Assembly: GCA_023657465.1 (NCBI GenBank)
Contig: JAGTJX010000004.1
Span: forward strand, 154,904-218,903
Reading direction: 5' to 3'
Source of the DNA: Lysobacteraceae bacterium
GTDB lineage: Bacteria > Bdellovibrionota > UBA1018 > JAGTJX01
DNA length: 64,000 bases
Positions 16,515-60,250 of this stretch are shown piece after piece. How positions within the stretch are numbered: the first letter of the stretch is position 1; the number at the start of each line of letters is the position of its first letter. The translations under genes and the position numbers were made by a program. The notes beneath the pieces were generated by a model. That model worked only from the letters and a program-made list of their open reading frames with translations, searched no databases and had not been told where the DNA came from.

Positions 16515-16554
16515 TTGACAACATATAATATATTAGGCATAATATATTATATGT
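16515..16554 (+). promoter_or_regulatory. Sigma70-like promoter with an overlapping 15-bp-arm palindromic operator; leaderless start of the XRE gene
   Basis: TTGACA at 16515-16520, 17 bp, then CATAAT at 16538-16543; the ATG at 16551 falls at the predicted +1. The perfect inverted repeat is ACATATAATATATTA-ggca-TAATATATTATATGT at 16521-16554. Confidence 0.55.
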
Positions 16555-17054
16555 TTGGAGCTCAAATTCGAGAGCAGAGAAAATCGATGAAATTGAGCCA
16601 GAGTGCTCTCTCAAGCCTCTCAGGAGTGAGTGTGCCAATGATCCAGCTCATAGAGTCTGAGAAGGGGAACCCTTCGATCAAGACATTGGTCATGATCTTA
16701 GATTCTCTCCACATGAAGTTAGTATGTAAGGAAGAAAAATTTAATTGGGATCGGTTTGCTAGGCATACAGCTCTACTTTATGAGCAAGGGACAGTCGAGA
16801 GAGCTTTCTGTACTGAGCAAACCCTAGTGAGTTGCCTCATTGCCGCAGGTGAAACCCTTGCTAAAGAAAAAGACCAGAGGAAGAAAGAAGCCTTGGAAAG
16901 TACCCTCTTGGCTCTTGAGTTGTACTACCCTGATTTCTATAGGCAGCTACTAGTTGAATCTTCAGCTTTAAAAAAACTATGTGCTTTCTCGATTTCTGGT
17001 CGACATATCAAGTTGAAGCGAATCGCTTTAGAGAGACTGAAGGACTACCTCTAG
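16551..17054 (+). CDS. XRE-family HTH transcriptional regulator with a C-terminal domain of unknown function
   Basis: N-terminal HTH_3 (QIREQRKSMKLSQSALSSLSGVSVPMIQLIESEKGNPSIKTLVMILDSL). The track ORF begins at a TTG at 16515 inside the operator, so the ATG at 16551 is preferred. Its stop overlaps the next start (TAGATG). Confidence 0.7.
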   Translation: MFGAQIREQRKSMKLSQSALSSLSGVSVPMIQLIESEKGNPSIKTLVMILDSLHMKLVCKEEKFNWDRFARHTALLYEQGTVERAFCTEQTLVSCLIAAGETLAKEKDQRKKEALESTLLALELYYPDFYRQLLVESSALKKLCAFSISGRHIKLKRIALERLKDYL

Positions 17055-17549
17055 ATGAAGACACTGAATGCAAAACTACTAGAGCAGTTTTTAAACCTAG
17101 TCATTAAAAAGCTTGAAGGTGAGTGGGTGCTACTAGGTGGCACTCTTATTCCCGCATTAGGGATCGAATATAGACAGACAGTCGATATTGATTTTGTACC
17201 TGCAGGAGAGATGACCAATAAAACATCATTGGAACTCATGGGCTTGGCAGAGAAGCTGGGAATTGCCGTTGAGTCGATCAATGCATCGGCGGGATTCTTC
17301 TTAAAGAAGATTCCAGATTTCTCTGAGCGTTTAGTCAGCCTGAAGAAGTCCAAGAGTTGCACAATCTACCGACCTACTTTGGATCTCTACCTTGAATTGA
17401 AACTCAATCGCGCTTCTCCCACGGATCTCACGGACTGCATACAATTAATCCAATATTGTAAGAAAATGAAACTAGCTGAAGAGTTAAAGTCTGGGAGCAA
17501 GTTTTTAGAGAAAAAAGACCGTAGAGATATTTTGAGATACTTTGGATAA
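17055..17549 (+). CDS. Minimal nucleotidyltransferase-fold protein (AbiEii/MenT-like motif)
   Basis: Motif LLGGTLIPALGIEYRQTVDIDFV fits the NTase signature hGG-x14-[DE]hDh. It is translationally coupled to the upstream XRE gene. Confidence 0.5.
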   Translation: MKTLNAKLLEQFLNLVIKKLEGEWVLLGGTLIPALGIEYRQTVDIDFVPAGEMTNKTSLELMGLAEKLGIAVESINASAGFFLKKIPDFSERLVSLKKSKSCTIYRPTLDLYLELKLNRASPTDLTDCIQLIQYCKKMKLAEELKSGSKFLEKKDRRDILRYFG

Positions 17550-17550
17550 T

Positions 17551-17646
17551 CCCTACCGGATTAAATGGACAATACTGAATAGAGTGATGGCAGCGTAGTA
17601 GTGAGTGTTCTTTCATAGAAATGTAAGTCCGTCTCTGACGGTTTTT
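17551..17646 (+). repeat. Intergenic repeat family copy R1 (core plus hairpin), ending in a Rho-independent terminator
   Basis: Core TACCGGATTAAATGGA at 17554-17569, then ...GTTCTTTCATAGAAATGTAAG, then CCGTC-tct-GACGG at 17629-17641 followed by TTTTT. It starts 2 nt after the NTase stop. Confidence 0.8.
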
Positions 17647-17783
17647 CACATCGTCTCAGTGATTGCGCTTGCGTATTGCCTCAAAAGTAAGTGTTACTTA
17701 TGAGCAGTAGGTCAACAGGAGTGAGAGTTAATGTAACTTAATTTAATTTAAAACACTGACAGCAAGAAACAATGTTAAAAAAT

Positions 17784-18533
17784 TCATCGTTTGATTTGCG
17801 ATACAACAATGTACCCTCGCGCTTTTGAAACACCCTTGTCTTGTGTATTCATTCCCTTAAAAAAGGTTTCGGTAGAAACCCAATAGGGTGTGTACCACTC
17901 GCGATCAACGTCTAAAACTAGTACTTTTTGTGAAGTTTTGTCATAAGCAGCGATCGGAGAAATATGACCCGCGGGTTCCGATTCCCCAGTAAAAACGGCT
18001 TGATCAAAATTAGCAATAATAAAGTCTTGATCTGTTTTCTCGTTCTCAGTGAAGTCACTTAGATAACCGTTTATAGCGCCTTTTTCTAGTGAATCGACGT
18101 GTATAACTTTAACTTGGTATTGATCTGGGAAATAAATATTGAGTGCTTTTTTTAAAACTTCTGAAAATCGATCCATTGAAAAGCATTTGTGATCTTTCAT
18201 GGCTTGGATCCATTCAGGGTCATTAACTTTTGCAACGATATCGGCTTGTGTAATGTTTTTTGTTTCAGAATCTAAGTCTTGCTTATTTTTAAGGGCATTG
18301 AAGATCGCCGCCATAGAGGCCGTTTGACACATGTTTTCTCCCTGCGGAACATAATGAAAAATCATAGCCCAAAAATCAGGAGCATGATTTTTTTGCAAAT
18401 ACTTATGATCGTCAATGGCTCTTAGAGTTTCAGGTGCGTATTTAGATTTAGAAAAAGCTTGGGGAGCAAGAGTGAAAGCTATTATTAGTAATGGACTAAA
18501 AAAAACGCTTGTTTGTTTTGATACGTATTTCAT
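17784..18533 (-). CDS. Secreted phytochelatin-synthase-like (papain-fold) peptidase
   Basis: Signal peptide plus a conserved PCS catalytic triad context: Cys in QGENMCQTASMAAIFNAL, His in PAGHISPIAAYD, Asp in KVLVLDVDREWYTPYWV. This closely parallels the cyanobacterial PCS-like enzyme. Confidence 0.8.
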   Translation of the reverse strand: MKYVSKQTSVFFSPLLIIAFTLAPQAFSKSKYAPETLRAIDDHKYLQKNHAPDFWAMIFHYVPQGENMCQTASMAAIFNALKNKQDLDSETKNITQADIVAKVNDPEWIQAMKDHKCFSMDRFSEVLKKALNIYFPDQYQVKVIHVDSLEKGAINGYLSDFTENEKTDQDFIIANFDQAVFTGESEPAGHISPIAAYDKTSQKVLVLDVDREWYTPYWVSTETFFKGMNTQDKGVSKARGYIVVSQIKR

Positions 18534-18566
18534 AGCTGTAAATTTTACTCATATTTCTTGGCATTG

Positions 18567-18738
18567 CAATACCAATACTCCCAATAAGCGGTTTAGTAAG
18601 TTTGGCGTCTTTTAAAACCCAGTCTACCGGATTAAATGGAAAATACTTCATAGAGGTTGGGTGGTTGAATTTGGAGCGTTAATCCATAGAAATGGAAGCG
18701 CCCGAAAGTTATTTACCTTCAGGCGTTCGTGATTTTTT
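18567..18738 (+). repeat. Intergenic repeat family copy R2 (5' module plus core plus hairpin)
   Basis: CCAATACTCCCAATAAGCGGTTTAGTAAGTTTGGCG is followed by the core TACCGGATTAAATGGA at 18625-18640, then GGGTGG..GGAGCGTT..TCCATAGAAATGGAAGCGCCCGAAAGT, ending GATTTTTT. Confidence 0.8.
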
Positions 18739-18760
18739 CATTAATATGAGCAGTTGGTGC

Positions 18761-19690
18761 TCAGGGTTTCACATCTTCTCCAATTTCCAGAATTTCAGCA
18801 TCATAGATGGTCTCGCTCATTAGATCGGGAAAATTGGTGATTGAATTACCGTATTCCTTGGAGCCAGGTAAGACACGTACTTGAATCTGTTGATCAGCGA
18901 CTTGGCTCGAAAGTTCGTAATCACGAATCAAAACTTTAACCATGTTTATTTTGGAGTCCGGCATTGGAAATGTTAAGTCTAACTTGTGTTGTGAGCCATC
19001 CAATTTAGGTAGCGTATTCAGCTGTTGGTTATAAAAATACTCATTAAGATCCTTTTTGTTTTGTTCAGAAAGATCTGCAGTTAAATGGATTTCAGAAACC
19101 GGCGGTAAGATACTACTTAGCATTTGTTTCCAAGTATCCGGTAGGAAGCTTTGGTCTGATTTCAGGTCAAAGGCAATAAATAGTTTCTCACCGTTGGTTC
19201 CCGTTAATTTATTCACACGAAGATGATCAATTAAGCCACTTGTACCTGGCTCGGGGAGGGAAAATAAAAGCATCGTGAGAAACGTGTAATTTGTTTTACC
19301 ATTTTTCTTAAGGAGCCCATTAGTTTTCTGTTTTTCCCATTCAGCAATTTTAGTGTTCTGAGTTTCAATGGTATTTGTCTGAGTGACTTTGGCAGTACAC
19401 TGGCCGACTGGAGGTATGATGTTTCCAGGATTTTTTGGATCTACGCCGTGAATATAACCTTCGTTTGTATTATCCTCTAAATCATCTTTTAGATCAGCAA
19501 CGCGAGTGGAATCGTTCATTGGACGTTTATCATTAATGTTGATCCTGTTCAAAACGTCATAGGGCAATTGAAGAAATATGGGTGACTCGCATTGAAAGTT
19601 TTTGAATTCAGTCTTTTGATGAACTTTGACGTGTTCCCCAGCATTTGCTGTGAGCGATACAAGGCATGTAAATATTAATACCTGCTTCAT
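18761..19690 (-). CDS. Secreted hypothetical protein
   Basis: Signal peptide MKQVLIFTCLVSLTANA (start moved to M6 of the track ORF). I recognise no domain. Confidence 0.5.
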   Translation of the reverse strand: MKQVLIFTCLVSLTANAGEHVKVHQKTEFKNFQCESPIFLQLPYDVLNRININDKRPMNDSTRVADLKDDLEDNTNEGYIHGVDPKNPGNIIPPVGQCTAKVTQTNTIETQNTKIAEWEKQKTNGLLKKNGKTNYTFLTMLLFSLPEPGTSGLIDHLRVNKLTGTNGEKLFIAFDLKSDQSFLPDTWKQMLSSILPPVSEIHLTADLSEQNKKDLNEYFYNQQLNTLPKLDGSQHKLDLTFPMPDSKINMVKVLIRDYELSSQVADQQIQVRVLPGSKEYGNSITNFPDLMSETIYDAEILEIGEDVKP

Positions 19691-19783
19691 AAAAATTCCT
19701 TCCACTCTAAATCCAATGGTTACCGAGCATTGTCCGAACCAAAACTCTTCAAATTAACAAGCAAATCAAACGTGTCTAATATT

Positions 19784-19806
19784 GCTCTATAGAGCACATA
19801 ATGTGC
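19784..19806. promoter_or_regulatory. Overlapping palindromes GCTCTATAGAGC and GCACAtaaTGTGC upstream of brnT
   Basis: Perfect 12-bp and 5+5 palindromes sit in the divergent intergenic region 19706-19953. They are candidate operator sites. Confidence 0.3.
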
Positions 19807-19918
19807 CAGGTTTTGCAGAGGTCTTTAGTGGGTAAAATTGAGAAGCAGGTTTGAACCCTGCCTATACCTAGAACAGCTGTCCAATGATTAGTCGGTCCAA
19901 ATATGCTTTATATGCTGC

Positions 19919-19947
19919 TTGACAATTGAGTACAAAAGGCACACAAT
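19919..19947 (+). promoter_or_regulatory. Promoter of brnTA (leaderless)
   Basis: TTGACA at 19919-19924, 17 bp, then CACAAT at 19942-19947; the ATG at 19954 lies 7 nt after the -10. Confidence 0.45.
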
Positions 19948-19953
19948 AGATTC

Positions 19954-20223
19954 ATGAGCTTTAAGTGGGATGAGGCTAAGAACAAGAAGCTAGCCGCTCA
20001 GGGCAGACCGGGATTTGAATTTTTCGTAGAGGCCTTTGATGAAGGGCTTATTTATTTCGAAGGCGAGAATACAAAACGTCCGGGACAGGGTGTTTTTGTC
20101 GTGATCATTAATGAGTATGCTCACGTAGTGCCTTATGAAGACAGAGGAGATCATCTCTTTTTAAGAACACTTTATCCATCCCGTAAGTGGCAGGTAGTAT
20201 ATGAAAAGGAGCAGAAGAAATGA
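19954..20223 (+). CDS. brnT: BrnT-family (DUF497, RelE/ParE-fold) toxin
   Basis: FKWDEAKNKKL...FEFFVEAF at the N-terminus and LFLRTLYPSRK at the C-terminus match DUF497. Its stop overlaps the next start (ATGA). Confidence 0.75.
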   Translation: MSFKWDEAKNKKLAAQGRPGFEFFVEAFDEGLIYFEGENTKRPGQGVFVVIINEYAHVVPYEDRGDHLFLRTLYPSRKWQVVYEKEQKK

Positions 20224-20531
20224 AAAATGCGAATAAAAAGACTTTAGCTGGATATGATCCAAAAAAAGTTAAGCTTTCTCGTGATGAGCAAGAGTTTGAA
20301 GACAACCTTGTGATCGCTGATTATTCTTCTAAGAGCTCAAAATCTGAACGTATGAACATTCGTTTGCCAGAAGAGGACTTGCTCAAGTTACAAAAGCTAG
20401 CGCTCAAGCATGGACTTCCCTACCAAACCTTAGTGGGCTCAGTGATTCATCGCTACGTTACTGATCAGTTGGTGGATTTAGAGGAAGCCAAAAAAATCCT
20501 TGCTGCGCCTCCTGCTAAAAAGAGAGCTTAG
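20220..20531 (+). CDS. brnA: BrnA-family antitoxin (RHH-like)
   Basis: MNIRLPEEDLLKLQKLALKHGLPYQTLVGSVIHRYV matches the BrnA consensus. Confidence 0.75.
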   Translation: MKNANKKTLAGYDPKKVKLSRDEQEFEDNLVIADYSSKSSKSERMNIRLPEEDLLKLQKLALKHGLPYQTLVGSVIHRYVTDQLVDLEEAKKILAAPPAKKRA

Positions 20532-20535
20532 ATTT

Positions 20536-20627
20536 TTACAGGAAATAACGTTCCAAACTTTGAAGCTGGTTTCTATTAAAGAATTGCCAATATTCCCATT
20601 AAGCTTTTTAGTTGATTTGGCGCTCAA
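20536..20627 (+). repeat. Intergenic repeat family copy R3 (5' module only)
   Basis: AAATAACGTTCCAAACTTTGAAGCTGGTTTCTATTAAAGAATTGCCAATATTCCCATTAAGCTTTTTAGTTGATTTGGCG is near-identical to 58812-58875 and related to segments of R2 and R5. It starts 5 nt after the brnA stop. Confidence 0.7.
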
Positions 20628-21488
20628 CTACTTCTTCCGGATTTCTTTGTAATAACCCTTTTCATAAATCTTCATGATCACTCTTTCCGTGAGAAGGGTG
20701 TCGAGACCTTTGCCACCTTGTTCGCGGATCATTTTGCGAGCCTCACTGCTACTGCCAGGCAACACAGATTCATCTTGAATGAAGATATCAGGCTTCGTAG
20801 AATCGTTGTTCTTGTATTGTACAGACTTACCATCGGTAGAGCGTGTGTAGCCTGCGAGAAAATCTGCAGGAAGCTTGGTGCTCACATCGAGAGTCATTGC
20901 AGTCACATCACCTCTAGGAATGAGCACCCAATGGGTAAGCGCGAAGAGTTCCTTCCAGTTTGGCCAAGTCGTAATACTGTTTAAAACATCCGTGCCCGCA
21001 ACCCAGAACAGATTCCTGGCACCGTTGGGATAAATTTCATTCAATCTCTTCAAAGTTTTGGAAGTGTCTTCGAAGATCTTCTCTTTGTATTCAAGATCAG
21101 ATGGACAGAGGTGGAAGACCTTAGCGGAGAGCTCTACCCATTCAGCACATCCATCAGTGGTGATATTGAATTCACTGTAAGGGATCTCTTCTAGCTTTAG
21201 AATCTGTGGCATGTCTTCCATAGCAAGTTTTGTGAGTTCGAGGTTCACGCCATTATTCTCTGATTCTTTCTTATAAGGCATCGCAACCATGAGAGTGCTC
21301 TCAAAGAAGTCTTCTCTGTGCATGAGTCTAGTAATCAGACGTAGATGTGACTTCGTCGGAGGATCGAAACTTCCTCCGAAAATAACATGAGTTTGAGAGG
21401 GAGCATCAGCTAGAGATGATGCTTTCTTAGGTATTGAGCTACAACTGGAAAGCGAAATGATGAGAAGTAAAAAATTTATTTTAGCCAT
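20628..21488 (-). CDS. NadD-family (cytidylyltransferase-fold) nucleotidyltransferase paralog with an N-terminal lipoprotein signal peptide
   Basis: Motifs IFGGSFDPPTKSHLRLI (HxGH region), WVAGTDVLNSITTWPNWKEL and IFIQDESVLPGSSSEARKMI all align to NadD. The N-terminus MAKINFLLLIISLSSC has a lipobox LSSC, and no alternative internal start exists. Confidence 0.65.
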   Translation of the reverse strand: MAKINFLLLIISLSSCSSIPKKASSLADAPSQTHVIFGGSFDPPTKSHLRLITRLMHREDFFESTLMVAMPYKKESENNGVNLELTKLAMEDMPQILKLEEIPYSEFNITTDGCAEWVELSAKVFHLCPSDLEYKEKIFEDTSKTLKRLNEIYPNGARNLFWVAGTDVLNSITTWPNWKELFALTHWVLIPRGDVTAMTLDVSTKLPADFLAGYTRSTDGKSVQYKNNDSTKPDIFIQDESVLPGSSSEARKMIREQGGKGLDTLLTERVIMKIYEKGYYKEIRKK

Positions 21489-26713: not shown

Positions 26714-26822
26714 GACTGACCGTGTGTGCAATGCTTTTTCTTTTCAGGGTCTGATTGATTTATTAAATAAACAATGCTAGTAGAGTCATCATTCAGTAAC
26801 GAATTCATTCGAAGGGGATTTT

Positions 26823-27314
26823 ATGAAATTTAATTTATTAGTGTTATCAGCAGTAGTGAGTATGGCGTCTTCATCCGTGATGGCAGCTCCGTACTATGTC
26901 GATTCAATGAATTGTGTAGGTAAGATTCAAGGTGATCATTCACAAGTTCATCCTAGCTACACTTGGATGATTACGAAGTTCACTTCATTCTTGTCTAAGA
27001 AGAAATCAGGCGGCTACGGTGTTAGTCTCCGCATTGCAAACGATTATTCAAAAACTAAGTCTGGTCTTGATAAAGAGCCAGGCGCAGAAGTTTGGTACAC
27101 CTCTTCATTGCAGCTCCGTAATAATGTGGTCACAAGCCCAGATAGTGATTTTCAGTTCGTAATTAAAAAGGTTTTGAAAGGTGGACACTTTCTCAGAGGA
27201 CAATATAAGCCTAACAACTCAGTAGCAGGTAATGGATACTGGTATGACATATCATGTTTGTCTGAAGTGATTGATAAACCAACACGTGTTTCCGATCAAA
27301 CGAAGAAAGATTAA
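26823..27314 (+). CDS. Small secreted hypothetical protein
   Basis: Signal peptide MKFNLLVLSAVVSMASSSVMA. It appears AT-rich by eye. Confidence 0.45.
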   Translation: MKFNLLVLSAVVSMASSSVMAAPYYVDSMNCVGKIQGDHSQVHPSYTWMITKFTSFLSKKKSGGYGVSLRIANDYSKTKSGLDKEPGAEVWYTSSLQLRNNVVTSPDSDFQFVIKKVLKGGHFLRGQYKPNNSVAGNGYWYDISCLSEVIDKPTRVSDQTKKD

Positions 27315-27337
27315 ATAACAATTCGGTAAGTGAGATT

Positions 27338-27751
27338 ATGAAAAAAATAATATTGAACTTAGTGGCACTATATATCTCCACCAGTCCGGCATTTGCGGAT
27401 TACAGCTGCAAAGTGAATCTAAATGAAAAAGACAGTACAGAATCTAGAAGCGAAACGATGACTATTAAAGTTAGTCCTTCGATTTTTGAGAGTACTTGGA
27501 CACCCTTTGAAATTAACTCTAAAGAGTTTGGCCTAATCAAAGGAGACGTCAACATTTTTGACTCAAAAGGTGGCTCAAGTCCCACTCGCCCATACGATGG
27601 GGTTTTTGTAAATTTACGCATAGATCGATTTAAAGAAATTAGATCAAAAACAAAAAATGGTCGATTCGCTGCAGTCACTTTTTCAAAGTATGACGATAGA
27701 TATATAACACTCGGAATCAATAGATTGTATTTGGAGTGCTTAAAACAATAA
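27338..27751 (+). CDS. Small secreted hypothetical protein
   Basis: Signal peptide MKKIILNLVALYISTSPAFA. It lies adjacent to and co-oriented with the preceding gene. Confidence 0.45.
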   Translation: MKKIILNLVALYISTSPAFADYSCKVNLNEKDSTESRSETMTIKVSPSIFESTWTPFEINSKEFGLIKGDVNIFDSKGGSSPTRPYDGVFVNLRIDRFKEIRSKTKNGRFAAVTFSKYDDRYITLGINRLYLECLKQ

Positions 27752-27816
27752 TCATTAGTTCGCTTCATGCGTGCTGATAATCAGTCTAAATCTCTAGTGG
27801 TTAAAATCTTTTGGAG

Positions 27817-47433: not shown

Positions 47434-47541
47434 AAAACTTTTAGACAACTGTCAGTCGTTTAATCGGTCATTCATCTCGATCTGCAATCTGTGAGCTTAC
47501 AGCCATAAAAACTTGGTACGACAGATGCATTATCTGTCTGT

Positions 47542-48045
47542 ATGAACTACAAAATCAAAGTGACAGTGTTTGTGTTGATGTTATTCGCTGGAGTTGCTCA
47601 AGCAGCTCCTACTCAAATCAATGAAGGTGCGCTCAGTACCATCAGTTTAAACAAGCATGGATTAGGGCTTGTTCTGGGTAGTTCTCAAACGGGTATGCCG
47701 GTGGGTTCGATTTACGACAAAGAGAGATATTATCCAGAAGTTCAAACAATCATTAATAAGAAGATCATGGGAGCGATCGAAAAAGGCTTTCAGCCCACAG
47801 GTTATGAGACGCTTTCGGAGAGCCAAGTTTATACTTTGAGCCGTAACAACTACGAGTTGCTCCTCATTTCGGGATACACCGTTCGAGCGAGCGCTGAGAA
47901 AATGCAGATGACCTTCATCATTCCGATTGAAAGACTGCTTAACGATGTGAAGGGTTCTCGCATCAGAGATGGCTACGAATATTGGAAGAGTTTGGATGTT
48001 CATACTCTCGATTCCTTGTCTGAATCAGAGACCCGATTGAAGTAA
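47542..48045 (+). CDS. Secreted hypothetical protein
   Basis: Signal peptide MNYKIKVTVFVLMLFAGVAQA. Confidence 0.45.
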   Translation: MNYKIKVTVFVLMLFAGVAQAAPTQINEGALSTISLNKHGLGLVLGSSQTGMPVGSIYDKERYYPEVQTIINKKIMGAIEKGFQPTGYETLSESQVYTLSRNNYELLLISGYTVRASAEKMQMTFIIPIERLLNDVKGSRIRDGYEYWKSLDVHTLDSLSESETRLK

Positions 48046-48212
48046 AAAACCGTCGAACTTCTAAACAATGTTTAGTTCTTGTGCAGTATTTTAGCCTATT
48101 TTTTTAACTTGTTAGCGCGTGAATTAGGATAAATTATTGATATAAAAGACAAAAAATATATTTGAAATCTTAACAATTTTAGACCGATAATTGCATATCA
48201 TATTAGTCAGGT

Positions 48213-53451: not shown

Positions 53452-55256
53452 TCTTAATCAATGCCCACGAGCTTCGTAAATCTTTCACCGCTAGACCTCT
53501 GTTTAATGGTCTGACCTTCACCATTGAATCTAAAGACCGTATTGGTCTCATTGGGCCAAATGGCGCGGGCAAGTCCACACTCATGAAGATCCTCATCGGT
53601 AAAGAGCAACCTGACTCAGGCACGCTCTCGATCAGATCGGGTACTAAGATTGCATACCTAGAACAGAAACCTACGCTCGACCAAGACACAACTGTGTATG
53701 CGACTCTCATGGAAGGCTCGCACGACGCTTACGACTGGCAGGAGATGTCGAGAGCTGACGCTCTGATCTCTAGGCTGGGACTTGATGGCGACGCTGTCGT
53801 GGGCAATCTCTCAGGCGGTTGGCAGAAGCGCGTGGCGCTGGGGCGTGAGCTCATGAAGCAGCCTGATCTACTCCTACTCGATGAGCCTACCAACCATCTC
53901 GATGTCGAGAGCATCATGTGGCTTGAAGATTTCTTAGAGCAATCTTCATTTGCAGTACTCACGATCACGCACGATCGTTTGTTCTTAAACCGCGTATCGA
54001 ATCGAATCATGGAACTCGATCGCAGGAACCCGGGCGGCATTCTCTGTGTCGAGGGAGATTACACGAAGTACTTGGAAGCCAAAGAAGAGCGCATCCACAA
54101 TCAAACCGAACGCGAAGTGAGATTGAAGAACGTTTTAAGACGCGAGACCGAGTGGTTGAGACGTGGAGCTAAGGCTCGTACGACGAAGCAACAAGCGCGA
54201 ATTCAACGTCATGGTGAACTCTCCAGTGAAGTGAATGAACTCAGTGATCGTAACAAAACCCAAAAAGTCAGAATGGACTTTGGCGCTGCTGAGAAGAACC
54301 CAAAGCGACTCATTGAAGCTTTGAAAGTTTCTAAGTCGTATGATGGCAATCTCGTCGTTCCAGAGCTCACACTCTTACTCACTCCACACAGCAGACTAGG
54401 ACTTCTCGGTCGAAACGGATCGGGTAAGTCGACGCTGATTAAACTGTTATTAGGCAGGGAGACTCCAGATCAGGGTGTTGTGAAACATGCCGACGCTCTC
54501 CAAGTTGCTTATTTCGAGCAGAATCGCGAAAGTCTAGATCCTAAGAAAACACTTCTTAAGACTTTATGCCCAACAGGTGACTACGTAGACTTCCAAGGCC
54601 GTCCTGTGCACATCAAGGGTTACCTCGATCGATTCAAATTCACTCCTGAACAAATGGACATGGAAGTAGGCAAGCTTTCAGGCGGTGAACAGGCAAGAAT
54701 TCTCATTGCGAAGCTCATGCTCCGTCCTGCAAACGTTCTTGTTCTTGATGAACCAACTAACGACCTCGATATGGAGACGCTCGATGTCCTTCAGGATGTC
54801 TTGGCTGAATTCAATGGCTCCGTCATTCTGGTTTCTCACGACAGGTTTTTCTTAGATTCTGTTTCTACCGACATCATTGCTATCGGCCCTGGAGAAAGTG
54901 GCGATAAGGAAATCCTGACGTTCAAGGGAGTTCTTCAGTGGGAAGAGTGGAAGCGTTCTGTTGGGATCAAAGAAACTAAGAAGAAGAACGTGAATCAAAA
55001 CTTAGACAAAGTCACAACAGCTCCTGGTAAGAAGAAAAAACTCTCGTTTACTGAACAGCATGAGTTCGACAAGATGGATGCAACCATTAAAGCAGCAGAA
55101 AAGAAATTAGAAGACATCGTGACGGAAAGTCACTCTCCCGAAGCAGCCGGATACTCAGTGAAGAAGCTCCAAGAGATCAGCGCTCAGATTGCACTCGCTC
55201 AGAAGGAAGTCGACCGACTCTATGCGAGATGGGAAGAACTCGAAGCGAAGAAGTAG
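53448..55256 (+). CDS. uup: ABC-F family ATPase (Uup-like, two ABC domains plus C-terminal coiled-coil)
   Basis: Two Walker A motifs (GPNGAGKST, GRNGSGKST) and two LSGG signatures without TM domains, plus a lysine-rich coiled-coil tail. The GTG start overlaps the previous stop. Confidence 0.9.
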   Translation: MILINAHELRKSFTARPLFNGLTFTIESKDRIGLIGPNGAGKSTLMKILIGKEQPDSGTLSIRSGTKIAYLEQKPTLDQDTTVYATLMEGSHDAYDWQEMSRADALISRLGLDGDAVVGNLSGGWQKRVALGRELMKQPDLLLLDEPTNHLDVESIMWLEDFLEQSSFAVLTITHDRLFLNRVSNRIMELDRRNPGGILCVEGDYTKYLEAKEERIHNQTEREVRLKNVLRRETEWLRRGAKARTTKQQARIQRHGELSSEVNELSDRNKTQKVRMDFGAAEKNPKRLIEALKVSKSYDGNLVVPELTLLLTPHSRLGLLGRNGSGKSTLIKLLLGRETPDQGVVKHADALQVAYFEQNRESLDPKKTLLKTLCPTGDYVDFQGRPVHIKGYLDRFKFTPEQMDMEVGKLSGGEQARILIAKLMLRPANVLVLDEPTNDLDMETLDVLQDVLAEFNGSVILVSHDRFFLDSVSTDIIAIGPGESGDKEILTFKGVLQWEEWKRSVGIKETKKKNVNQNLDKVTTAPGKKKKLSFTEQHEFDKMDATIKAAEKKLEDIVTESHSPEAAGYSVKKLQEISAQIALAQKEVDRLYARWEELEAKK

Positions 55257-55432
55257 CACAGCTTTTTTTAGTCCAGACTTTGGACGTGAAGTCTGATCTT
55301 CGAACAGAAATTAATCCATATTCAATAAAACATAGTTTAGCTCGGCATAGTTTTTGTACTTAGGAGTGCAGCCAAACTGAGCAGAGTGAGTGTGAAGAGA
55401 GAGTGGCATTGCCATTTTATTTGAGCACTTTG

Positions 55433-55456
55433 GCTCCTTTCCAAAAGAAAGGAGGT
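55433..55456 (+). promoter_or_regulatory. SD-sequestering hairpin in the 5' UTR of the small ORF
   Basis: CTCCTTTC (55434-55441), loop caaaa, then GAAAGGAG (55447-55454). This perfect 8-bp stem places the whole AAGGAGG Shine-Dalgarno in the 3' arm. Confidence 0.6.
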
Positions 55457-55460
55457 CTTT

Positions 55461-55595
55461 ATGGATGATAACGAGTTTGCCAACCGTTATTATACGTATC
55501 GTACGCAGTTAGAGAAACTTAAGCAGAAAACATGGCTCCTGATCGTCATAGCCCGCTTTCTGTTGTTTCTCATTGCACTTGCTCATCGTTTTTAG
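55461..55595 (+). CDS. Small membrane peptide (44 aa), candidate type I toxin-like ORF
   Basis: ATG at 55461 with SD AAAGGAGG 7 nt upstream. MDDNEFANRYYTYRTQLEKLKQKTWLLIVIARFLLFLIALAHRF has a polar N-terminus and a C-terminal TM helix. It is absent from the ORF track because it falls under the length cutoff. Confidence 0.45.
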   Translation: MDDNEFANRYYTYRTQLEKLKQKTWLLIVIARFLLFLIALAHRF

Positions 55596-55709
55596 GTGAG
55601 CCACTATAAATGACGATAGTGACGAGGCCTAGGGATACAGCGTAAACCTGGAGCTTTCATGATGAGGTCTGCTTGGTTTGGTCCAACTAAACATTAATTC
55701 CTGCAGCCC

Positions 55710-55800
55710 ATAGTACCTGATTAAATGGAATTTCTATCTGGAAGAAGAGTGGGCGGAGTTGGGAGCGTTCTTTCATAGAAATGAAAACGCCCGAAAGTGA
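55710..55800 (+). repeat. Intergenic repeat family copy R4 (core plus hairpin)
   Basis: Core TACCTGATTAAATGGA at 55714-55729, then GGGCGG..GGAGCGTTCTTTCATAGAAATGAAAACGCCCGAAAGT. It is about 75-80% identical to R2 over ~95 nt. Confidence 0.8.
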
Positions 55801-55828
55801 ATTATGTAATCAGAGCAATGTAGTGCTC

Positions 55829-56764
55829 TTATTCATCATTTCGTCCTACTGAGTGAAAAGCAGACCCTGGCGCAAAAATTGCTAACCACCTGAGCCAGGC
55901 CGCTAAACCTGTTCCTTGGAATAGCCCTTCTGCCTCTCCTACTGTTGCAAGCGGAGTGAGGTTATCACCTGAAGTGATCAATGCTTTCAACGCAATGTCC
56001 GCATTGTATTCCGCTGTACTTAATGATTTCTGTGATTCAGAGCCAAACGCGGCTCCTTGTGCAGCTAGAGCGAGGTCTAGACGAATTTTGTTATTTTCAT
56101 CTCCAAAAGCATCAACTATGAAAGCCCGTTTTGGGTCTCTTCCTATTGTAGTGGATTTAAACTGATAGCCCAATTGCGAAAGCCATGCAGCTAATGCTGA
56201 TGATGTCTTTCTTGCATGAAAAGCAGTCATCCAAAAGTGGTAGGGCTTAGAGTTATCAAAGCTGATCTTCACATTTTTAGGAATTGAGTAAAGCTGCTGA
56301 AATCGTATTTGAGCGCTAGCATCGAGAACAGAAACACCTAATGCAAGAATTTGAAAAAAGATGCCTGTATATTTTCTTGTGTCTTTAAATGAAGATGAAA
56401 AACCGCGGAGTCTAAGGTTGATATTAGGGCCTCCAGTTGAGAGAATAGCTAACGCTTCCCAAGAGTATTGATATGCCTCATCGTCTGTAGCGCCTGCTTT
56501 CTTCATATTACTTTGCATATCTAAGAAAAAATCCGAGCTTCTAGTCAATGAACCAGTTTTAATTTTTTCGAAGATCTCAAGAGTCATCAGGCGAATTCCT
56601 TCAATCATGACAGGGTTTTGGTACATCCCTATGATTTCATTTAACAGAGTGATTGGAGGCTGAGAGGTTGGAGACATATCATTCAATATTTTTTGTAATG
56701 CCCTTTTACAGGACTCGATTTTAAGAAGAGACCCATGAAGAGTGCAGAGGCCATAGAGGTGCAA
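55829..56764 (-). CDS. Hypothetical protein
   Basis: 311-aa ORF, probably co-transcribed with the upstream secreted protein. Unknown family. Confidence 0.45.
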   Translation of the reverse strand: MHLYGLCTLHGSLLKIESCKRALQKILNDMSPTSQPPITLLNEIIGMYQNPVMIEGIRLMTLEIFEKIKTGSLTRSSDFFLDMQSNMKKAGATDDEAYQYSWEALAILSTGGPNINLRLRGFSSSFKDTRKYTGIFFQILALGVSVLDASAQIRFQQLYSIPKNVKISFDNSKPYHFWMTAFHARKTSSALAAWLSQLGYQFKSTTIGRDPKRAFIVDAFGDENNKIRLDLALAAQGAAFGSESQKSLSTAEYNADIALKALITSGDNLTPLATVGEAEGLFQGTGLAAWLRWLAIFAPGSAFHSVGRNDE

Positions 56765-56788
56765 AGCAGGTGGGCTGATCTTCTCTTT

Positions 56789-57283
56789 TTACTTTTTGAG
56801 GAAGGCTAAAAAGTACTCATAGAGCTCAGTTTTTTTCGCGGGAAGCGTTGTAAATTTTGTTTTTTTACTGAGTACCATTTCGATACTTTTCCAATCGATG
56901 GGATCTGGGTTTGAAAAATAAAACTGTTGATCAAATGCAAAACGTCGAATTTTCTCTATCGGAATCAATGATAGCTGCCATGTTGTGATTTTAGTGGATT
57001 TAAAAATTTTAGGATTAAATGTTTCAGGTGAATGAAAGATTGATTCAAGTGTTCCATCTTTGAGCCCAAAAACAGTATCTTGCCCAGATAAAACGACAGA
57101 TCGGGCAAAAGAACTGATCTCAATGTTTTTTATATCCTCTTGAAGAGTTGCTAAGGTTGTCTTACCCAGGAGACTTGAGCAAAGTTTTCTTGTTCCCTCA
57201 TAAATACCCCGCGGGTAAGAAGGTAAGTCTGTACCTGCAATAAGTGAGGTAAAGAATATAAGCTTTAGAATGATCAAGATCAT
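56789..57283 (-). CDS. Secreted hypothetical protein
   Basis: Signal peptide MILIILKLIFFTSLIAG. It appears AT-rich by eye. Confidence 0.45.
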   Translation of the reverse strand: MILIILKLIFFTSLIAGTDLPSYPRGIYEGTRKLCSSLLGKTTLATLQEDIKNIEISSFARSVVLSGQDTVFGLKDGTLESIFHSPETFNPKIFKSTKITTWQLSLIPIEKIRRFAFDQQFYFSNPDPIDWKSIEMVLSKKTKFTTLPAKKTELYEYFLAFLKK

Positions 57284-57424
57284 GTTTTATTATCGTCAAA
57301 ATGATAGCTAAACTAAAATGGTTTTCACGCATATCCATCAGTATCATTAGATTCTGGTGTGGATCTGTAACTTTTTATTGTGGACCTTCTATTCAATAAA
57401 ACTCATTCTGCGGCACTCACTTTT

Positions 57425-57580
57425 ACCGGAAATATTTGCTAATATTTTCATTAAGCGTTTTAGTTGATCTGGCGGTTTTTGAAATCGAGTCTACCTGATT
57501 AAATGGACACTCTATAATAGAGGAGGAGTGTCTTTTAGTGAACGATACTTCATAGGAATTTGAGGGACTTAATGCCAATT
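57425..57580 (+). repeat. Intergenic repeat family copy R5 (5' module plus core plus degenerate hairpin)
   Basis: TTGCTAATATTTTCATTAAGCGTTTTAGTTGATCTGGCG is followed by the core TACCTGATTAAATGGA at 57492-57507, then ..ATAGAGGAGGAGTG..CTTCATAGGAATTTGAGGG. Confidence 0.75.
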
Positions 57581-57883
57581 CAAAGACTCTTTTCTAAGGC
57601 TCTTACCTTCTTAAATCTTAGAAAAATTGGCCTGGCTGACCCTAGTCATTCCATTGCTCAGTGTTTGTGCCAAAACATTTTCCACTCAAAACGACAACAT
57701 CATTAAAAATACAAAAGTAATTTTCATTTTATTTACCCCTTATGAAAATTGCTAACCGTACTGAGTTATGATTGCGCGGCTTGCAGCAGCTCAATCACAA
57801 CTGAAAAAAGTCAAATGAGACACACCCAGTAACGTGTCAACTCAGACACTTTGTAAATAGTATACCAAAAATGATACCATATA

Positions 57884-58774
57884 ATGATGAGGCATTTGCT
57901 TATTCTAGTATTATCGCTTTCTAACGCTGGCTGTATAATACCGAGACTGAAAGGGAAATCTTCGTCATCTGTATCCACAACCTATTCCGCCACTCCTACA
58001 AGTTGCGATCGAACATCAACATCTATTTCTTGCCCCTCTGGATATGTAGCTGTGCCAGGAAATTCATGTTGGGGAATAAATGATTTTTGTGTAATGCAGT
58101 TTGAAGCCAAAAATGACGGTAGCGGCAATCCTTTTAGTCAGGATGTTACAATCCCTTGGAATTCAATTACTGCTGTTGCAGCAAAGGCTAAGTGTCAAAG
58201 CTTGGGTGCTGCGTACGATTTGATTTCAAACCCAGAATGGATGGTGATTGCAAGAAACGTTGAGAAAGTGTCGATAAATTGGTCGAGCGGTGTAGTGGGC
58301 TCAGGCTGCTTGATGAGTGGTAATTGCTTGAATGGAAATGCATGCAGCTATTCTACAGGTACCTCTGACTTCGGTCCTGTTGCTGGAAGAAATTCTAAGG
58401 CATCTCTTACTCTAAGTTCAGGAAGTTTAATTTGGGACTTTTCTGGAAATCAATGGGAGTTTGTCGACTGGTATCCAGGCTGAGCGCTCGACTTTGGTCC
58501 CACCAGTTGCCCGACAGGATGGATCGAGTTTCCTGCTGCGTTAGCTGCATGCGCAGCTTTAGTGTTTGATGACGTTATGCCAGGTAACCCATCCAATCAG
58601 CTTGCATCGACTTATGACTCCACTTATAGTCTTGGACAATTTACTGGTGGCCCTGGTGGCGCTTATCGAGGAGGTGGGTTTGGTTATTCCAACTCAGGGG
58701 TTTATGCATTGGCAATGGATCATGGAGGCGGAACCAACGCCAACTATGGATTTCGTTGCGTTTATCGCCCTTGA
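57884..58774 (+). pseudogene. DUF1566/FGE-sulfatase-fold (C-type-lectin-like) lipoprotein gene interrupted by one in-frame TGA
   Basis: Track ORFs 57884..58483 and 58562..58774 share a reading frame. The only stop between them is the TGA at 58481-58483, and the intervening codons (ALDFGPTSCPTGWIEFPAALAACAAL) are protein-like. Lipobox LSNAGC; motifs GNQWEFVDW and C-terminal GFRCVYRP are typical of the family. Confidence 0.5.
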
Positions 58775-58809
58775 TAAATAATTTTTTATGACTAAGAAAA
58801 AAGAAATCT

Positions 58810-58880
58810 CTAAATAACGTTCCAAATTTTGAGACCGTTTTCTATTAAGGATTTGCCAATATTTACAGTAACTTAGAAGA
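58810..58880 (+). repeat. Intergenic repeat family copy R6 (5' module only)
   Basis: AAATAACGTTCCAAATTTTGAGACCGTTTTCTATTAAGGATTTGCCAATATTTACAGTAACTTAGAAG is near-identical to R3 at 20543-20610. Confidence 0.7.
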
Positions 58881-59050
58881 GCTATTCATGCCGCCGACAA
58901 GCCTAAATTGAAAGAAGGCTCTAGTGCTTACGATTACTCTGCCGCTTCTGAGTTAGGTAACAGAAAGTTTATTGCCGAGGCCATTGAAGATGCACTTTTG
59001 GATGGAGATGCAGCTCTTGAGATTCCAGAATTCGACAGGAAAGAGTCACC

Positions 59051-60250
59051 CTAAACACTCACCCCAGCAGCCCAACCTGAAGCCCAAGCCCATTGAAAGT
59101 TGTATCCACCTAGCCAGCCTGTGACATCGAGCACTTCACCAATGAAGTATAGTCCTGGTGACTTAGTGCTCTCCATCGTCTTCGATGAAACATCACGAGT
59201 ATCGACGCCACCCTTAGTGACTTCGGCTTTCACATATCCCATGGTAGTTTTAGGTTTTAATTGCCAGTGAGTGAGTGAATCACAGAACTTCTCTAAAACC
59301 TTTTCAGAGATCTCAGGTAGCGTCTTGCCACTGAGTCCATCTCTCTCGCAAAGCTGTTCTGCCAAGCGTGATGGAATGATCTGTCCTAATACATTCTTAA
59401 TGAGCGACTTATTCCCAGCTTTCTTCTCAGAGAGACACCACTCAAGTGGATCTAATTCAGGAGAGAGGTTGATCTCGATCTCCTCTCCATGAGTCCAATG
59501 GAGTGAGCCTTGGAGTGCTGCAGGCCCACTGAGACCAGAATGTGTGAATAAAATGTTCTCACGGAACGAGAGATCTCCAGCAGTGAGGATACAATCAACA
59601 GAGACTCCCGCAAGCTTCGTGAAGAAGGATGATTCTGCACCAAACGTGAATCCATCGAGCGCAGGCTTCGTCTCAACAATCTTATGCCCAAACTGACGAG
59701 CTATATCGTACCCAAGTCCAGTGGCACCTAACTTAGGAAGCGATAGCCCACCTGTAGCAATCACGAGTGAGTGGGTGAGATAGATGCCTTGAGAGGTTTC
59801 CACTCTGTAGCGATTTACAGAGTCGTCCTTCAAGTGCTCTACTTTCAGAATTTTATTCTCGAGATGAAACTCTGCTCCTGCTTTCTCGGTTTCGTTTTTC
59901 AGCATTGCAATGATCTCGCGTGCAGAGACGTCGCAGAAGAGTTGACCCAATTTTTTCTCATGGAACTTGATTCGGTGCTTGGTCACCATCGCGATGAAGT
60001 CATCAGGGGTGTAGCGAGAAAGTGCAGACTTACAAAAGTGTTCATTCTTCGAAACGTAGTTGGCGGGAGATGCGCCGATATTAGTGAAGTTACAACGACC
60101 GCCACCTGAGATGAGGATCTTGCCACCGACTTGATCCTTATGATCGATGAGGATGACTGACTTGCCGCGAGCGCCAGCATGAATCGCGCACATCATTCCA
60201 GCGCCACCTGCGCCTAGAATTAAAACATCAGAACGAAAGTCATGCCCCAT
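59051..60250 (-). CDS. HI0933/YhiN/BaiN-family NAD(P)/FAD-dependent flavoprotein
   Basis: [14 protein letters not shown] dinucleotide-binding motif and a family-typical C-terminus. The start was moved to MGHDF at 60250. Confidence 0.8.

What the first reader, a model, noticed from the sequence alone, without database searches (positions are those of the whole stretch)
55710..57580. Second cassette: repeat copies R4 and R5 flank a two-gene minus-strand operon (secreted protein plus 311-aa unknown)
The architecture matches R1/R2: the core-type copy lies downstream of the operon's 3' end and the 5'-module-plus-core copy lies upstream of its promoter side, both in + orientation. The enclosed genes (56789..57283 with a signal peptide, and 55829..56764) have no recognisable family and look AT-rich by eye. 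Two independent occurrences make a chance juxtaposition less likely.
Basis: seen in the sequence. Interest (0 to 1): 0.55.

Follow-up and report, generated by a model that had tools for sequence, protein, structure and literature searches.

The report
Repeat-bounded gene cassettes, integrase-less
Two small strain-specific islands in a Bdellovibrio-like genome are built from short gene cassettes that each start and end with the same conserved sequences, which looks like tandem mobile-element insertion with no recombinase gene in the window; the enclosed "two-gene operon" is really one gene broken by a stop codon.

Summary
The repeats are real. A ~100-nt core occurs four times (17548-17650, 18617-18727, 55706-55807, 57484-57592) and a ~40-95-nt module four times. 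All copies are on the + strand and none lies elsewhere in the window.

Both islands have the same layout: core, genes, module+16-nt spacer+core, genes, module. Each cassette therefore runs from a core to a module.

Relatives at 73-80% DNA identity keep the flanking core genes but lack the cassettes and the repeats. In island A the window-specific insert (17550-20625) starts at a core and ends at a module, to within a few bases.

Core conservation is in blocks: box 1 93%, spacer 46% at near-fixed length, box 2 75%. There is no consensus RNA fold, attC-type hairpin, terminal inverted repeat or Rfam match. No recombinase was found among the window ORFs I checked.

Best reading (about 0.5): ends of non-autonomous cassettes inserted in tandem by a recombinase encoded elsewhere, similar to cis-mobilizable elements.

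It belongs to an unnamed family with 404 matches among 50%-identity cluster representatives. The neighbouring cassette gene also carries an in-frame stop.

Only four copies in one genome could be examined.

The parts
55706..55807 (+). R4, a core (delta) copy and the left end of cassette E3. Box 1 GTACCTGATTAAATGGA, a variable spacer of 34 nt (33 in R5), box 2 AGCGTTCTTTCATAGAAATGA, then ...ACGCCCGAAAG.
   Evidence: nhmmer E 7.6e-26; alignments
55829..57283 (-). Cargo of E3: one 484-codon gene for a secreted protein of an unnamed ~500-aa family. An in-frame TAA splits it into a 164-aa ORF and a 311-aa ORF.
   Evidence: Same frame with a single stop; 404 homologues, mostly 470-540 aa; the N-part matches P0242 residues 50-133 at E 5e-11; end-to-end alignment A6
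56789..56791 (-). The in-frame TAA (codon 165) that splits the gene. It falls in a poorly conserved linker of the family.
57436..57474 (+). Module beta (M5), the right end of cassette E3: TTGCTAATATTTTCATTAAGCGTTTTAGTTGATCTGGCG. The profile match extends back to 57401.
   Evidence: 87% identical to 20584-20622; nhmmer E 1.3e-18
57475..57490 (+). The 16-nt spacer gamma (GTTTTTGAAATCGAGT) between module and core. It matches the spacer at 18607-18622 at 11 of 16 positions.
   Evidence: Direct reading
57491..57592 (+). R5, a core (delta) copy and the left end of cassette E4.
   Evidence: nhmmer E 9.3e-25
57884..58774 (+). Cargo of E4: a lipoprotein-like SUMF1/FGE-type gene, probably one gene with an in-frame TGA at 58481-58483.
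   Evidence: Translation; residues 65-195 are 34% identical (E 1e-13) to a SUMF1/EgtB/PvdO protein. That the C-terminal 70 aa belong to the same gene is inferred from the shared frame, the lack of an SD before the second ORF, and the ...GFRCVYRP ending.
58812..58884 (+). M6, a module-only copy (alpha plus a truncated beta) and the right end of cassette E4 and of the repeat-bounded part of island B.
   Evidence: 86.5% identical over 52 nt to 20543-20594; nhmmer E 4.9e-13
55257..59050 (.). Island B: all DNA between the stop codons of the convergent ABC-F and HI0933-like genes. Two relatives carry unrelated genes here.
17548..17650 (+). R1, a core copy and the left end of cassette E1 and of island A. 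It starts 1-4 nt after the stop of the AbiEii-like gene at 17549.
18565..18727 (+). M2 + spacer + R2: the junction between cassettes E1 (phytochelatin-synthase-like gene 17784-18533, minus strand) and E2.
20543..20622 (+). M3, a module-only copy (alpha+beta) and the right end of cassette E2 and of island A. It ends about 5 nt before the stop codon (20628) of the conserved CTP_transf-like gene.
17550..20625 (.). Island A: the window-specific insert, absent from relatives L006 and L007.
   Evidence: Homology to L006 stops at 17528-17543 and resumes at 20626; gene tables

Best explanation
R4, M5/R5 and M6, and likewise R1, M2/R2 and M3, are the ends of small non-autonomous mobile cassettes of 1.1-2.0 kb. 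Each cassette begins with a ~100-bp core and ends with a ~40-95-bp module. Two cassettes sit head to tail in each of two hotspots between convergent core genes.

The layout core | cargo | module-spacer-core | cargo | module is what tandem site-specific integration produces when two elements share a ~200-bp attP-like site (module = P arm, core = P' arm). The outer junctions each keep one arm, as attL and attR do, and the middle junction rebuilds a complete attP-like site.

The cassettes carry no recombinase gene, so a recombinase encoded elsewhere in the genome would have to move them. Box 1 (TACCKGATTAAATGGA), box 2 (GCGTT..TYCATAGAAATG) and the module would be its DNA-binding sites. The cargo is accessory: secreted proteins and lipoproteins plus a toxin-antitoxin pair. 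In island B the cargo is already decaying through nonsense mutations.

Shown: the repeats, their arrangement, their absence from relatives, the match between insert boundaries and repeat ends, and the block-wise conservation. Inferred: mobility, the kind of recombinase, and the crossover point.
For: (1) Both islands have the same modular order, with all 8 copies co-oriented and confined to the islands.

(2) Island A: relative L006 has M28 then CTP_transf with 1 nt between them and no cassette, and L007 also lacks it. The window-specific segment 17550-20625 begins within about 4 nt of the start of core R1 and ends within about 3 nt of the end of module M3.

(3) Island B: the same ABC-F/flavoprotein gap holds unrelated genes in L004 and L005, so it is a turnover hotspot.

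(4) There are no core or module copies in about 76 kb of these relatives.

(5) Box 1 is 93% identical between copies, the 34-nt spacer (33 in R5) 46%, box 2 75% and the tail 44%. The copies are more diverged than orthologous genes of the relatives (73-80%). This suggests old, separately acquired ends with selected recognition boxes, not a recent local duplication.

(6) The 16-nt spacer between module and core is also conserved (11 of 16), so module-spacer-core behaves as one unit.

(7) The cargo has lower G+C (37-41% against 45-48%) and low GC3, includes a BrnT/BrnA-like pair and gene fragments, and has in-frame stops.

(8) RNA and hairpin explanations fail.

(9) Integrase-less elements that retain att sites and sit in tandem arrays are a documented outcome of accretion (PMC5704250, read).
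Against: No recombinase or transposase was found in the cassettes or among the window ORFs I tested, so no mobilising enzyme has been identified.

No short identical core sequence could be shown at all three junctions of an island. Only CCGGATT and TTTGG recur, and the similarity of the core to the native CTP_transf 3' end is not significant.

In island B the repeat-bounded part (55706-58884) is shorter than the variable region (55257-59050), so the boundary match rests on island A alone.

Only four copies of each part, from one genome, could be examined. Pattern scans of the genome, metagenome and viral collections found no further members. No circular junction or empty-site read was seen.
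Confidence: 0.5

Rival explanations
1. The ends belong to a transposon-type non-autonomous element. A transposase supplied in trans (for example an HUH rolling-circle or single-strand enzyme, or Tn554-like recombinases) recognises different left and right ends, and a second copy is targeted next to the right end of the first. No attP-like site-specific recombination is involved.
For: The ends differ, there is no target duplication and all copies share one orientation. A hairpin GG(A)GCGTT..TYCAT-AGAA-ATGRA-ARCGCCC is present in R2 and R4, with two positions where the pair differs between the two copies (C-G against U-A; G-U against A-U). Core box 2 and the module's 5' part share motifs in inverted orientation: TTTGGARCGTTA and TTCTTTMATAGAAA.
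Against: The hairpin has decayed in R1 and R5, and no consensus fold survives alignment. There are no terminal inverted repeats above the shuffle level. No transposase is in the window. The conserved 16-nt spacer at both internal junctions is more easily explained if module-spacer-core is one site.
Confidence: 0.15
2. The repeats are not recombination sites. They are a lineage-specific intergenic repeat or regulatory unit, such as a protein operator, that travels with accessory genes. The islands would have been exchanged by ordinary homologous recombination in the flanking core genes.
For: Other variable islets in the window (26714-27815 and 47435-48126) turn over without any such repeat, so turnover at a site does not need them. 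RecA is encoded in the window. Box 2 is a partial palindrome (TTTC-ATA-GAAA), as many operators are. Terminator-like hairpins for the minus-strand genes lie next to R1, R2 and R4.
Against: This does not explain why island A begins exactly with a core and ends exactly with a module, or why both islands repeat the same order. Positions relative to genes are inconsistent: downstream of 3' ends, or 30-300 nt upstream of starts, on either coding strand. Promoter-like sites are not enriched. The terminator hairpins lie in the non-conserved tails.
Confidence: 0.25
3. The core encodes a small structured RNA, such as an sRNA, riboswitch or 3'-UTR element, with the module as its promoter.
For: Conserved boxes separated by a spacer of nearly fixed length. 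AUGGA in box 1 and in box 2 can both pair with UYCAU. R1 ends in a + strand terminator-like hairpin.
Against: No Rfam match, even at E up to 5. The RNAalifold consensus is -1.9 kcal/mol on the + strand with six predicted pairs, three of them with compensatory changes, and there are zero pairs on the - strand. Single-sequence folds are no better than shuffles, apart from cargo terminators. R1 and R4 lack the module. No consistent downstream gene exists.
Confidence: 0.07

Closest known systems
CIMEs (cis-mobilizable elements) and tandem accretion of integrative elements, for example the ICESt1/CIME arrays of Streptococcus (definition taken from PMC5704250)
   Same: The elements keep their att-type ends but have no integration genes. 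They sit head to tail at one chromosomal site. The internal junction is a complete attP-like site, and each outer junction carries one arm. The cargo is accessory and partly decayed.
   Different: These cassettes are far smaller, at 1-2 kb with 1-3 genes. They do not look like decayed ICEs or IMEs. No tRNA or gene 3' end is duplicated as a recognisable core. No partner element with an integrase is in view. The same ends are used at two unrelated sites between convergent genes.
Integron gene cassettes and CALINs (clusters of attC sites lacking an integrase)
   Same: Arrays of very small cassettes that lack a recombinase, are separated by a conserved co-oriented recombination-site-like repeat, and carry AT-rich genes of unknown function and toxin-antitoxin pairs.
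   Different: The repeat is not an imperfect palindrome or hairpin and has no R''/R' boxes. The breakpoint lies in the middle of the ~200-bp unit, not at its 3' edge. Cargo genes lie in both orientations and appear to have their own terminators. No IntI or attI was found.
pdif (XerC/D) modules of Acinetobacter plasmids (from my own knowledge)
   Same: Small gene modules of 1-3 kb without a recombinase, often toxin-antitoxin or accessory genes, bounded by recombination sites used by a recombinase encoded elsewhere.
   Different: pdif sites are 28-bp XerC-spacer-XerD sites in alternating orientation. Here the bounding sequences are 40-100 bp, direct, not palindromic, and show no dif-like match.
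Tn554-type elements and IS91/ISCR-type elements (from my own knowledge)
   Same: Asymmetric ends, no terminal inverted repeats, no target duplication, and orientation-specific insertion.
   Different: Those elements encode their own enzymes. No such gene is present here, and no known end motifs were recognised.

Membership tests
Integron gene cassette / attC array (CALIN) | Each repeat is an imperfect palindrome (R''-L''...L'-R') able to fold as a single-stranded hairpin | tested here: not met
   ssDNA folds of module+core on both strands give z-scores from +1.97 to -1.35 against shuffles, with no long hairpin. The inverted-repeat search finds only inconsistent arms of 8-14 nt.
Integron gene cassette / attC array (CALIN) | Cassette boundary at the 3' edge of the site (G|TTRRRY), so each cassette starts with only about 6 nt of the site | tested here: not met
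   Island A starts with a full ~100-nt core and ends with a module, so the breakpoint is in the middle of the unit. No GTTRRRY lies at the boundaries on direct reading.
Integron gene cassette / attC array (CALIN) | IntI integrase and attI next to the array (not required for a CALIN) | tested here: not met
   No Phage_integrase or other recombinase hit among the island ORFs and the 38 other window ORFs scanned. The rest of the genome was not available.
CIME / tandem accretion of integrative elements | The element keeps attL- and attR-type ends but has no integrase or transfer genes | tested here: met
   Core at the left and module at the right of each of four cassettes. The cargo has no recombinase domain.
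CIME / tandem accretion of integrative elements | The internal junction of the tandem carries both arms (attP-like) and the outer junctions one arm each | tested here: met
   18565-18727 and 57436-57592 are module+spacer+core. 17548-17650 and 55706-55807 are core only. 20543-20622 and 58812-58884 are module only.
CIME / tandem accretion of integrative elements | An identical short core (often the 3' end of the target gene) repeated at every junction | tested here: inconclusive
   CCGGATT occurs at all three junctions of island A, and the native gene end CTTCCGGATT resembles box 1 CTACCGGATT. However, the core against the native 3' end is not significant (p 0.17-0.93), and the DNA left of CCGGATT at the right junction is native.
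CIME / tandem accretion of integrative elements | Excision or integration catalysed by an integrase of a co-resident element | not testable with these tools
   This needs the whole genome, the reads or an experiment.
MITE / DDE transposon | Terminal inverted repeats and a target-site duplication | tested here: not met
   Left end against reverse-complemented right end scores within the shuffle range for matching elements. Only internal motifs are shared. No duplication is seen at 17550 and 20625 on direct reading.
IS200/IS605-derived PATE or REP/BIME | Conserved subterminal or palindromic hairpins at the ends | tested here: not met
   The hairpin is present in R2 and R4 only. There is no consensus structure and no hairpin in the modules.
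Known structured RNA family (Rfam) | Match to a covariance model or a conserved secondary structure | tested here: not met
   No hit at gathering thresholds over the whole window. Only E=3 chance hits in 55600-57700. RNAalifold gives -1.9 and 0 kcal/mol.
Diversity-generating retroelement (TR/VR repeat) | Reverse transcriptase and avd nearby, with repeat differences confined to adenines of the template | tested here: not met
   Considered because the E4 cargo resembles a DGR target protein. No RT was found in the window ORFs tested. The M3/M6 differences are T/C, G/A, A/G and C/T, not adenine-specific, and the repeats are intergenic.

The most novel reading that the evidence does not exclude
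This is a previously undescribed gene-cassette system of Bdellovibrionota. A dedicated recombinase acting in trans recognises a bipartite ~200-bp double-stranded site without a hairpin (module-spacer-core). It shuffles a pool of 1-2 kb cassettes encoding secreted predation or defence proteins and toxin-antitoxin pairs into the gaps between convergent core genes. It would be a functional analogue of integrons with unrelated site chemistry and several chromosomal landing sites.
Probability: 0.2. Interest if true: 0.7.

Novelty: new variant of a known kind. Interest (0 to 1): 0.45.

Why it matters
If these ends are recombination sites, very small cassettes without an integrase can spread accessory secreted proteins in predatory-type bacteria. 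They would do so through a site unrelated to attC and land in several gaps between convergent genes. That would add a new route of gene-cassette traffic and give a sequence handle (box 1, box 2 and the module) for finding the recombinase and the cassette pool in metagenomes.

The practical result is more modest. The annotation of the locus changes: one nonsense-split gene of a large uncharacterised ~500-aa secreted family, not two orphan genes. It also shows that these cassette genes are decaying.

Tried and rejected
Structured RNA was rejected. Rfam found nothing. Single folds were no better than shuffles apart from cargo terminators. RNAalifold found no consensus structure on either strand.

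A small coding ORF across the core was rejected on direct reading. The spacer is 34 nt in three copies and 33 in R5, which breaks the frame, and R2 has a stop in the shared frame.

An attC-type hairpin and terminal inverted repeats were rejected.

The core as a copy of the target gene's 3' end was not significant. One gappy match of R4 to the AbiEii-like gene end (p about 0.01 among 24 tests) was dismissed.

A sigma-70 promoter inside the repeat was not supported, because promoter-like sites are not enriched. By eye I found no sigma-28 or sigma-54 match, and no dif or IHF consensus.

Searches for more copies failed. The pattern TACCKGATTAAATGGAN{40,48}CATAGRAA in the genome, metagenome and viral collections gave only an unrelated Elusimicrobium sequence. 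Alpha and beta patterns in viral contigs gave two hits that do not extend. blastn of module+core against plasmids and phages found nothing. The MAG itself is not on record for contig look-ups, so I could not read beyond the window.

AlphaFold2 single-sequence models of the 311-aa and 164-aa ORFs were unusable (pLDDT 38.4 and 40.7). I therefore ran no fold search.

Pfam, NCBIfam, PHROGs, PADLOC and PDB sequence or profile searches gave no function for the split gene or its family.

Homologues of the split gene in four other contigs (L008-L011) carry no core or module.
Full report
**The observation.** The region holds two copies of a repeat on the + strand. A core-only copy, R4, lies at 55706-55807. 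A copy made of a 5' module, a 16-nt spacer and the core, M5/R5, lies at 57401-57592. Together with R1 (17548-17650) and M2/R2 (18540-18727) they form a family.
- A profile of the four cores recovers them at E 3e-29 to 9e-25, and nothing else in 64 kb scores better than E 0.55.
- The box-1 13-mer is over-represented: 8 matches against 2.4 expected, with 0 of 100 shuffles reaching 8.
- The module also occurs alone at 20543-20638 (M3) and 58812-58884 (M6). These two share an extra 5' stretch, alpha, at 83-87% identity.
- All eight pieces are co-oriented and lie only in two places, 17.5-20.6 kb and 55.7-58.9 kb.

**Anatomy of the repeat.** The core has four parts.
- Box 1 (C/G)TACCKGATTAAATGGA: mean pairwise identity 93%.
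- A spacer of 34 nt (33 in R5): 46% identity, which is close to random.
- Box 2 AGCGTT..TYCATAGAAATG: 75% identity.
- A tail (…GCGCCCGAAAG in R2 and R4): 44% identity.

The module beta is TTGCYAATAYT..CAWTAAGCGKTTTAGT.R.YTGGCG. Between module and core lies a 16-nt spacer: TCTTTTAAAACCCAGT in one island and GTTTTTGAAATCGAGT in the other, identical at 11 of 16 positions. Whole cores are only 55-68% identical. That is more diverged than the orthologous genes of the nearest relatives (73-80% DNA identity). The copies are therefore old, and the boxes appear to be held by selection; this is not a recent local duplication.

**Architecture.** Both islands read core, cargo, module-spacer-core, cargo, module. 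The simplest parse is four cassettes, each running from a core (left end) to a module (right end).

| Cassette | Coordinates | Cargo |
|---|---|---|
| E1 | 17550-18622 | Secreted phytochelatin-synthase-like protein (PF05023, E 2e-26) |
| E2 | 18623-20625 | 314-aa secreted protein plus a pair I read as BrnT/BrnA-like; only the second gene has a weak CopG_antitoxin hit, below Pfam's cut-off |
| E3 | 55706-57474 | The finding's gene |
| E4 | 57475-58884 | SUMF1/FGE-type lipoprotein |

**Synteny.** The organism is a Bdellovibrionota-type bacterium. The best named relatives of its ABC-F and Dus proteins are Bdellovibrionales, Oligoflexia and Bdellovibrio MAGs, although NCBI labels the MAG Xanthomonadaceae.

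Island B:
- Two relatives, L004 (ABC-F 95% aa) and L005 (90%), keep ABC-F and the convergent HI0933-like flavoprotein gene.
- The DNA between the two stop codons (window 55257-59050) is replaced in them by unrelated genes: a 464-aa PD40 protein in L004, and 436-aa plus 67-aa proteins in L005.

Island A:
- L006, from the same sample as L004, has M28 then CTP_transf with 1 nt between them and no cassette. L007 lacks the cassette as well.
- Homology to the window stops at 17528-17543, where the AbiEii-like gene's stop is at 17549. It resumes at 20626, where the CTP_transf gene's stop is at 20628.
- The window-specific insert is therefore 17550-20625. It starts within about 4 nt of core R1 and ends within about 3 nt of module M3.

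About 76 kb of these relatives contains no core or module. Other variable islets in the window (26714-27815 and 47435-48126) have no such repeat.

**What the repeat is not.**
- Not a known RNA: Rfam gives nothing.
- Not a conserved fold: RNAalifold gives -1.9 kcal/mol on the + strand and no pairs on the - strand. Single folds match shuffles, except where a cargo terminator is included.
- Not an attC-type hairpin.
- Not bounded by terminal inverted repeats, and no target duplication is present.
- Not a DGR repeat.
- Not found in plasmid, phage, viral, genome or metagenome collections.
- Promoter-like sites are at the shuffle level. The best candidates for the minus-strand gene lie in unique DNA at 57270-57328, outside the repeat.

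R2 and R4 share a hairpin, GG(A)GCGTT..TYCAT-AGAA-ATGRA-ARCGCCC, in which two paired positions differ between the two copies while pairing is kept. It has decayed in R1 and R5. Box 2 and the alpha part of the module share two motifs in inverted orientation. With four copies I cannot interpret that further.

**Most likely mechanism.** The pattern is one arm at each outer junction and both arms at the inner junction. That is what two successive site-specific integrations of elements sharing a ~200-bp attP-like site produce: attL, then an attP-like site, then attR. Integrase-less elements that keep their att ends and sit in tandem are known as cis-mobilizable elements formed by accretion (PMC5704250). 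I therefore read the cores and modules as the P' and P arms of small non-autonomous cassettes moved by a recombinase encoded elsewhere. Box 1, box 2 and the module would be its binding sites.

The weak points are these.
- No recombinase or transposase is in the cassettes or in the window ORFs I scanned.
- No identical crossover core could be demonstrated. CCGGATT recurs at the three junctions of island A, and the native gene end CTTCCGGATT resembles box 1. However, the DNA left of it at the right junction is native, and the overall similarity is not significant.
- In island B the repeat-bounded part is shorter than the variable region. The extra 55257-55705 carries a 44-aa ORF and ends in a stretch only about 64% like the module. 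The extra 58885-59050 looks like a gene fragment.

Rivals are a transposon-type element with asymmetric ends, a passive lineage-specific intergenic or operator repeat carried on islands exchanged by homologous recombination, and a small RNA. I give them 0.15, 0.25 and 0.07.

**The enclosed genes.** The 164-aa and 311-aa ORFs are in one frame, separated by a single TAA (56789-56791) and eight codons.
- The word-indexed search found only the protein itself. The exhaustive phmmer search found 404 matches among the 50%-identity cluster representatives, 52 of them below 1e-30. Nearly all are 470-540 aa, and the 311-aa ORF aligns to their last ~300 residues.
- The 164-aa ORF aligns to residues 50-133 of the best homologue (E 5e-11).
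- The fused 484-aa sequence aligns end to end with 24 homologues. Invariant residues lie in both halves: W102, C180, C192, the KPYHFW motif, and the family consensus motifs GYQM.S.T.GRDP.RAF and NNKIR.D.

So this is one gene for a secreted protein of an uncharacterised family, interrupted by a nonsense codon in a variable linker. It is most likely a pseudogene; a sequencing error cannot be excluded. The family has no Pfam, NCBIfam or PDB-sequence match, and PHROGs and PADLOC, run on the two window ORFs only, gave nothing either. Single-sequence AlphaFold models were too poor to use.

The E4 gene also has an in-frame stop, a TGA at 58481-58483. Its N-terminal part is homologous to SUMF1/FGE-type proteins. 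That the two parts are one gene is an inference.

Cargo G+C is 37-41%, against 44.7% for the window and about 48% for the flanking genes.

**Verdict.** It needs re-parsing (core...module units in tandem) and correction (one split gene, not an operon, and not an orphan). This is best filed as a new variant of a known kind. It works like integrase-less att-bounded elements or gene cassettes, but it fails the defining tests for integron attC sites, MITEs and REP elements. Confidence is limited by four copies in a single genome.

Noticed in passing
window 55434-55595: A 44-aa ORF (MDDNEFANRYYTYRTQLEKLKQKTWLLIVIARFLLFLIALAHRF) has a C-terminal hydrophobic helix. Its Shine-Dalgarno sequence forms the 3' arm of an 8-bp hairpin (CTCCTTTC-CAAAA-GAAAGGAG). 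It looks like a type I toxin-style small membrane peptide inside island B, upstream of R4.
   Followed up: partly
window 57884-58774: The second cassette's gene also has an in-frame stop (TGA at 58481-58483). Its N-terminal part is 34% identical (E 1e-13) to a SUMF1/EgtB/PvdO protein that sits next to avd and a reverse transcriptase (a DGR target) on Photobacterium plasmid NZ_CP018299. No RT or avd is present in the window.
   Followed up: partly
window 16515-17549; L006 6215-7180: A pair of genes, HTH (Xre-type) and an AbiEii-like nucleotidyltransferase, borders island A. In relative L006 the pair lies on the other side of the M28 peptidase gene, and in L007 it is absent, so it appears to move on its own. 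A 36-nt palindrome (16520-16555, 94%) at the start of the HTH gene is conserved in L006.
   Followed up: partly
L008 4715-4904 and 5548-5740: In an unrelated contig that carries a homologue of the split gene, a ParE-type toxin-antitoxin pair is flanked by two ~190-nt direct repeats (85-90% identical). Each repeat is a long hairpin with arms of 39-50 nt at 90% complementarity. The homologue follows the second repeat. This is a different repeat sequence but a similar repeat-cassette-repeat layout.
   Followed up: partly
window 58908-59054: A 48-aa ORF (…NRKFIAEAIEDALLDGDAALEIPEF…) overlaps the stop of the HI0933-like gene. From memory it resembles the N-terminus of HigA-type antitoxins and is probably a gene fragment left by earlier turnover. 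It has no Pfam hit.
   Followed up: partly
window 26714-27815 and 47435-48126: Two further strain-variable islets (small ORFs with no Pfam hit, 37-41% G+C) differ from the relatives but carry no core or module repeat.
   Followed up: partly
whole window: NCBI names the source MAG 'Xanthomonadaceae bacterium' (KA715 locus tags, 429,514-bp contig). Its ABC-F and Dus proteins are closest to Bdellovibrionales, Oligoflexia and Bdellovibrio MAG proteins, and its G+C is 44.7%. The label is probably wrong.
   Followed up: partly
window 19783-19796: A perfect 14-nt palindrome, TGCTCTATAGAGCA, lies in the divergent intergenic region between the 314-aa secreted-protein gene and the BrnT/BrnA-like pair. 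It could be an operator.
   Followed up: no
window 55248-55256 and 20628-20636: The ABC-F gene (+ strand, left of island B) and the CTP_transf gene (- strand, right of island A) both end in AAGAAGTAG (K-K-stop). This is probably coincidence and was not tested.
   Followed up: no
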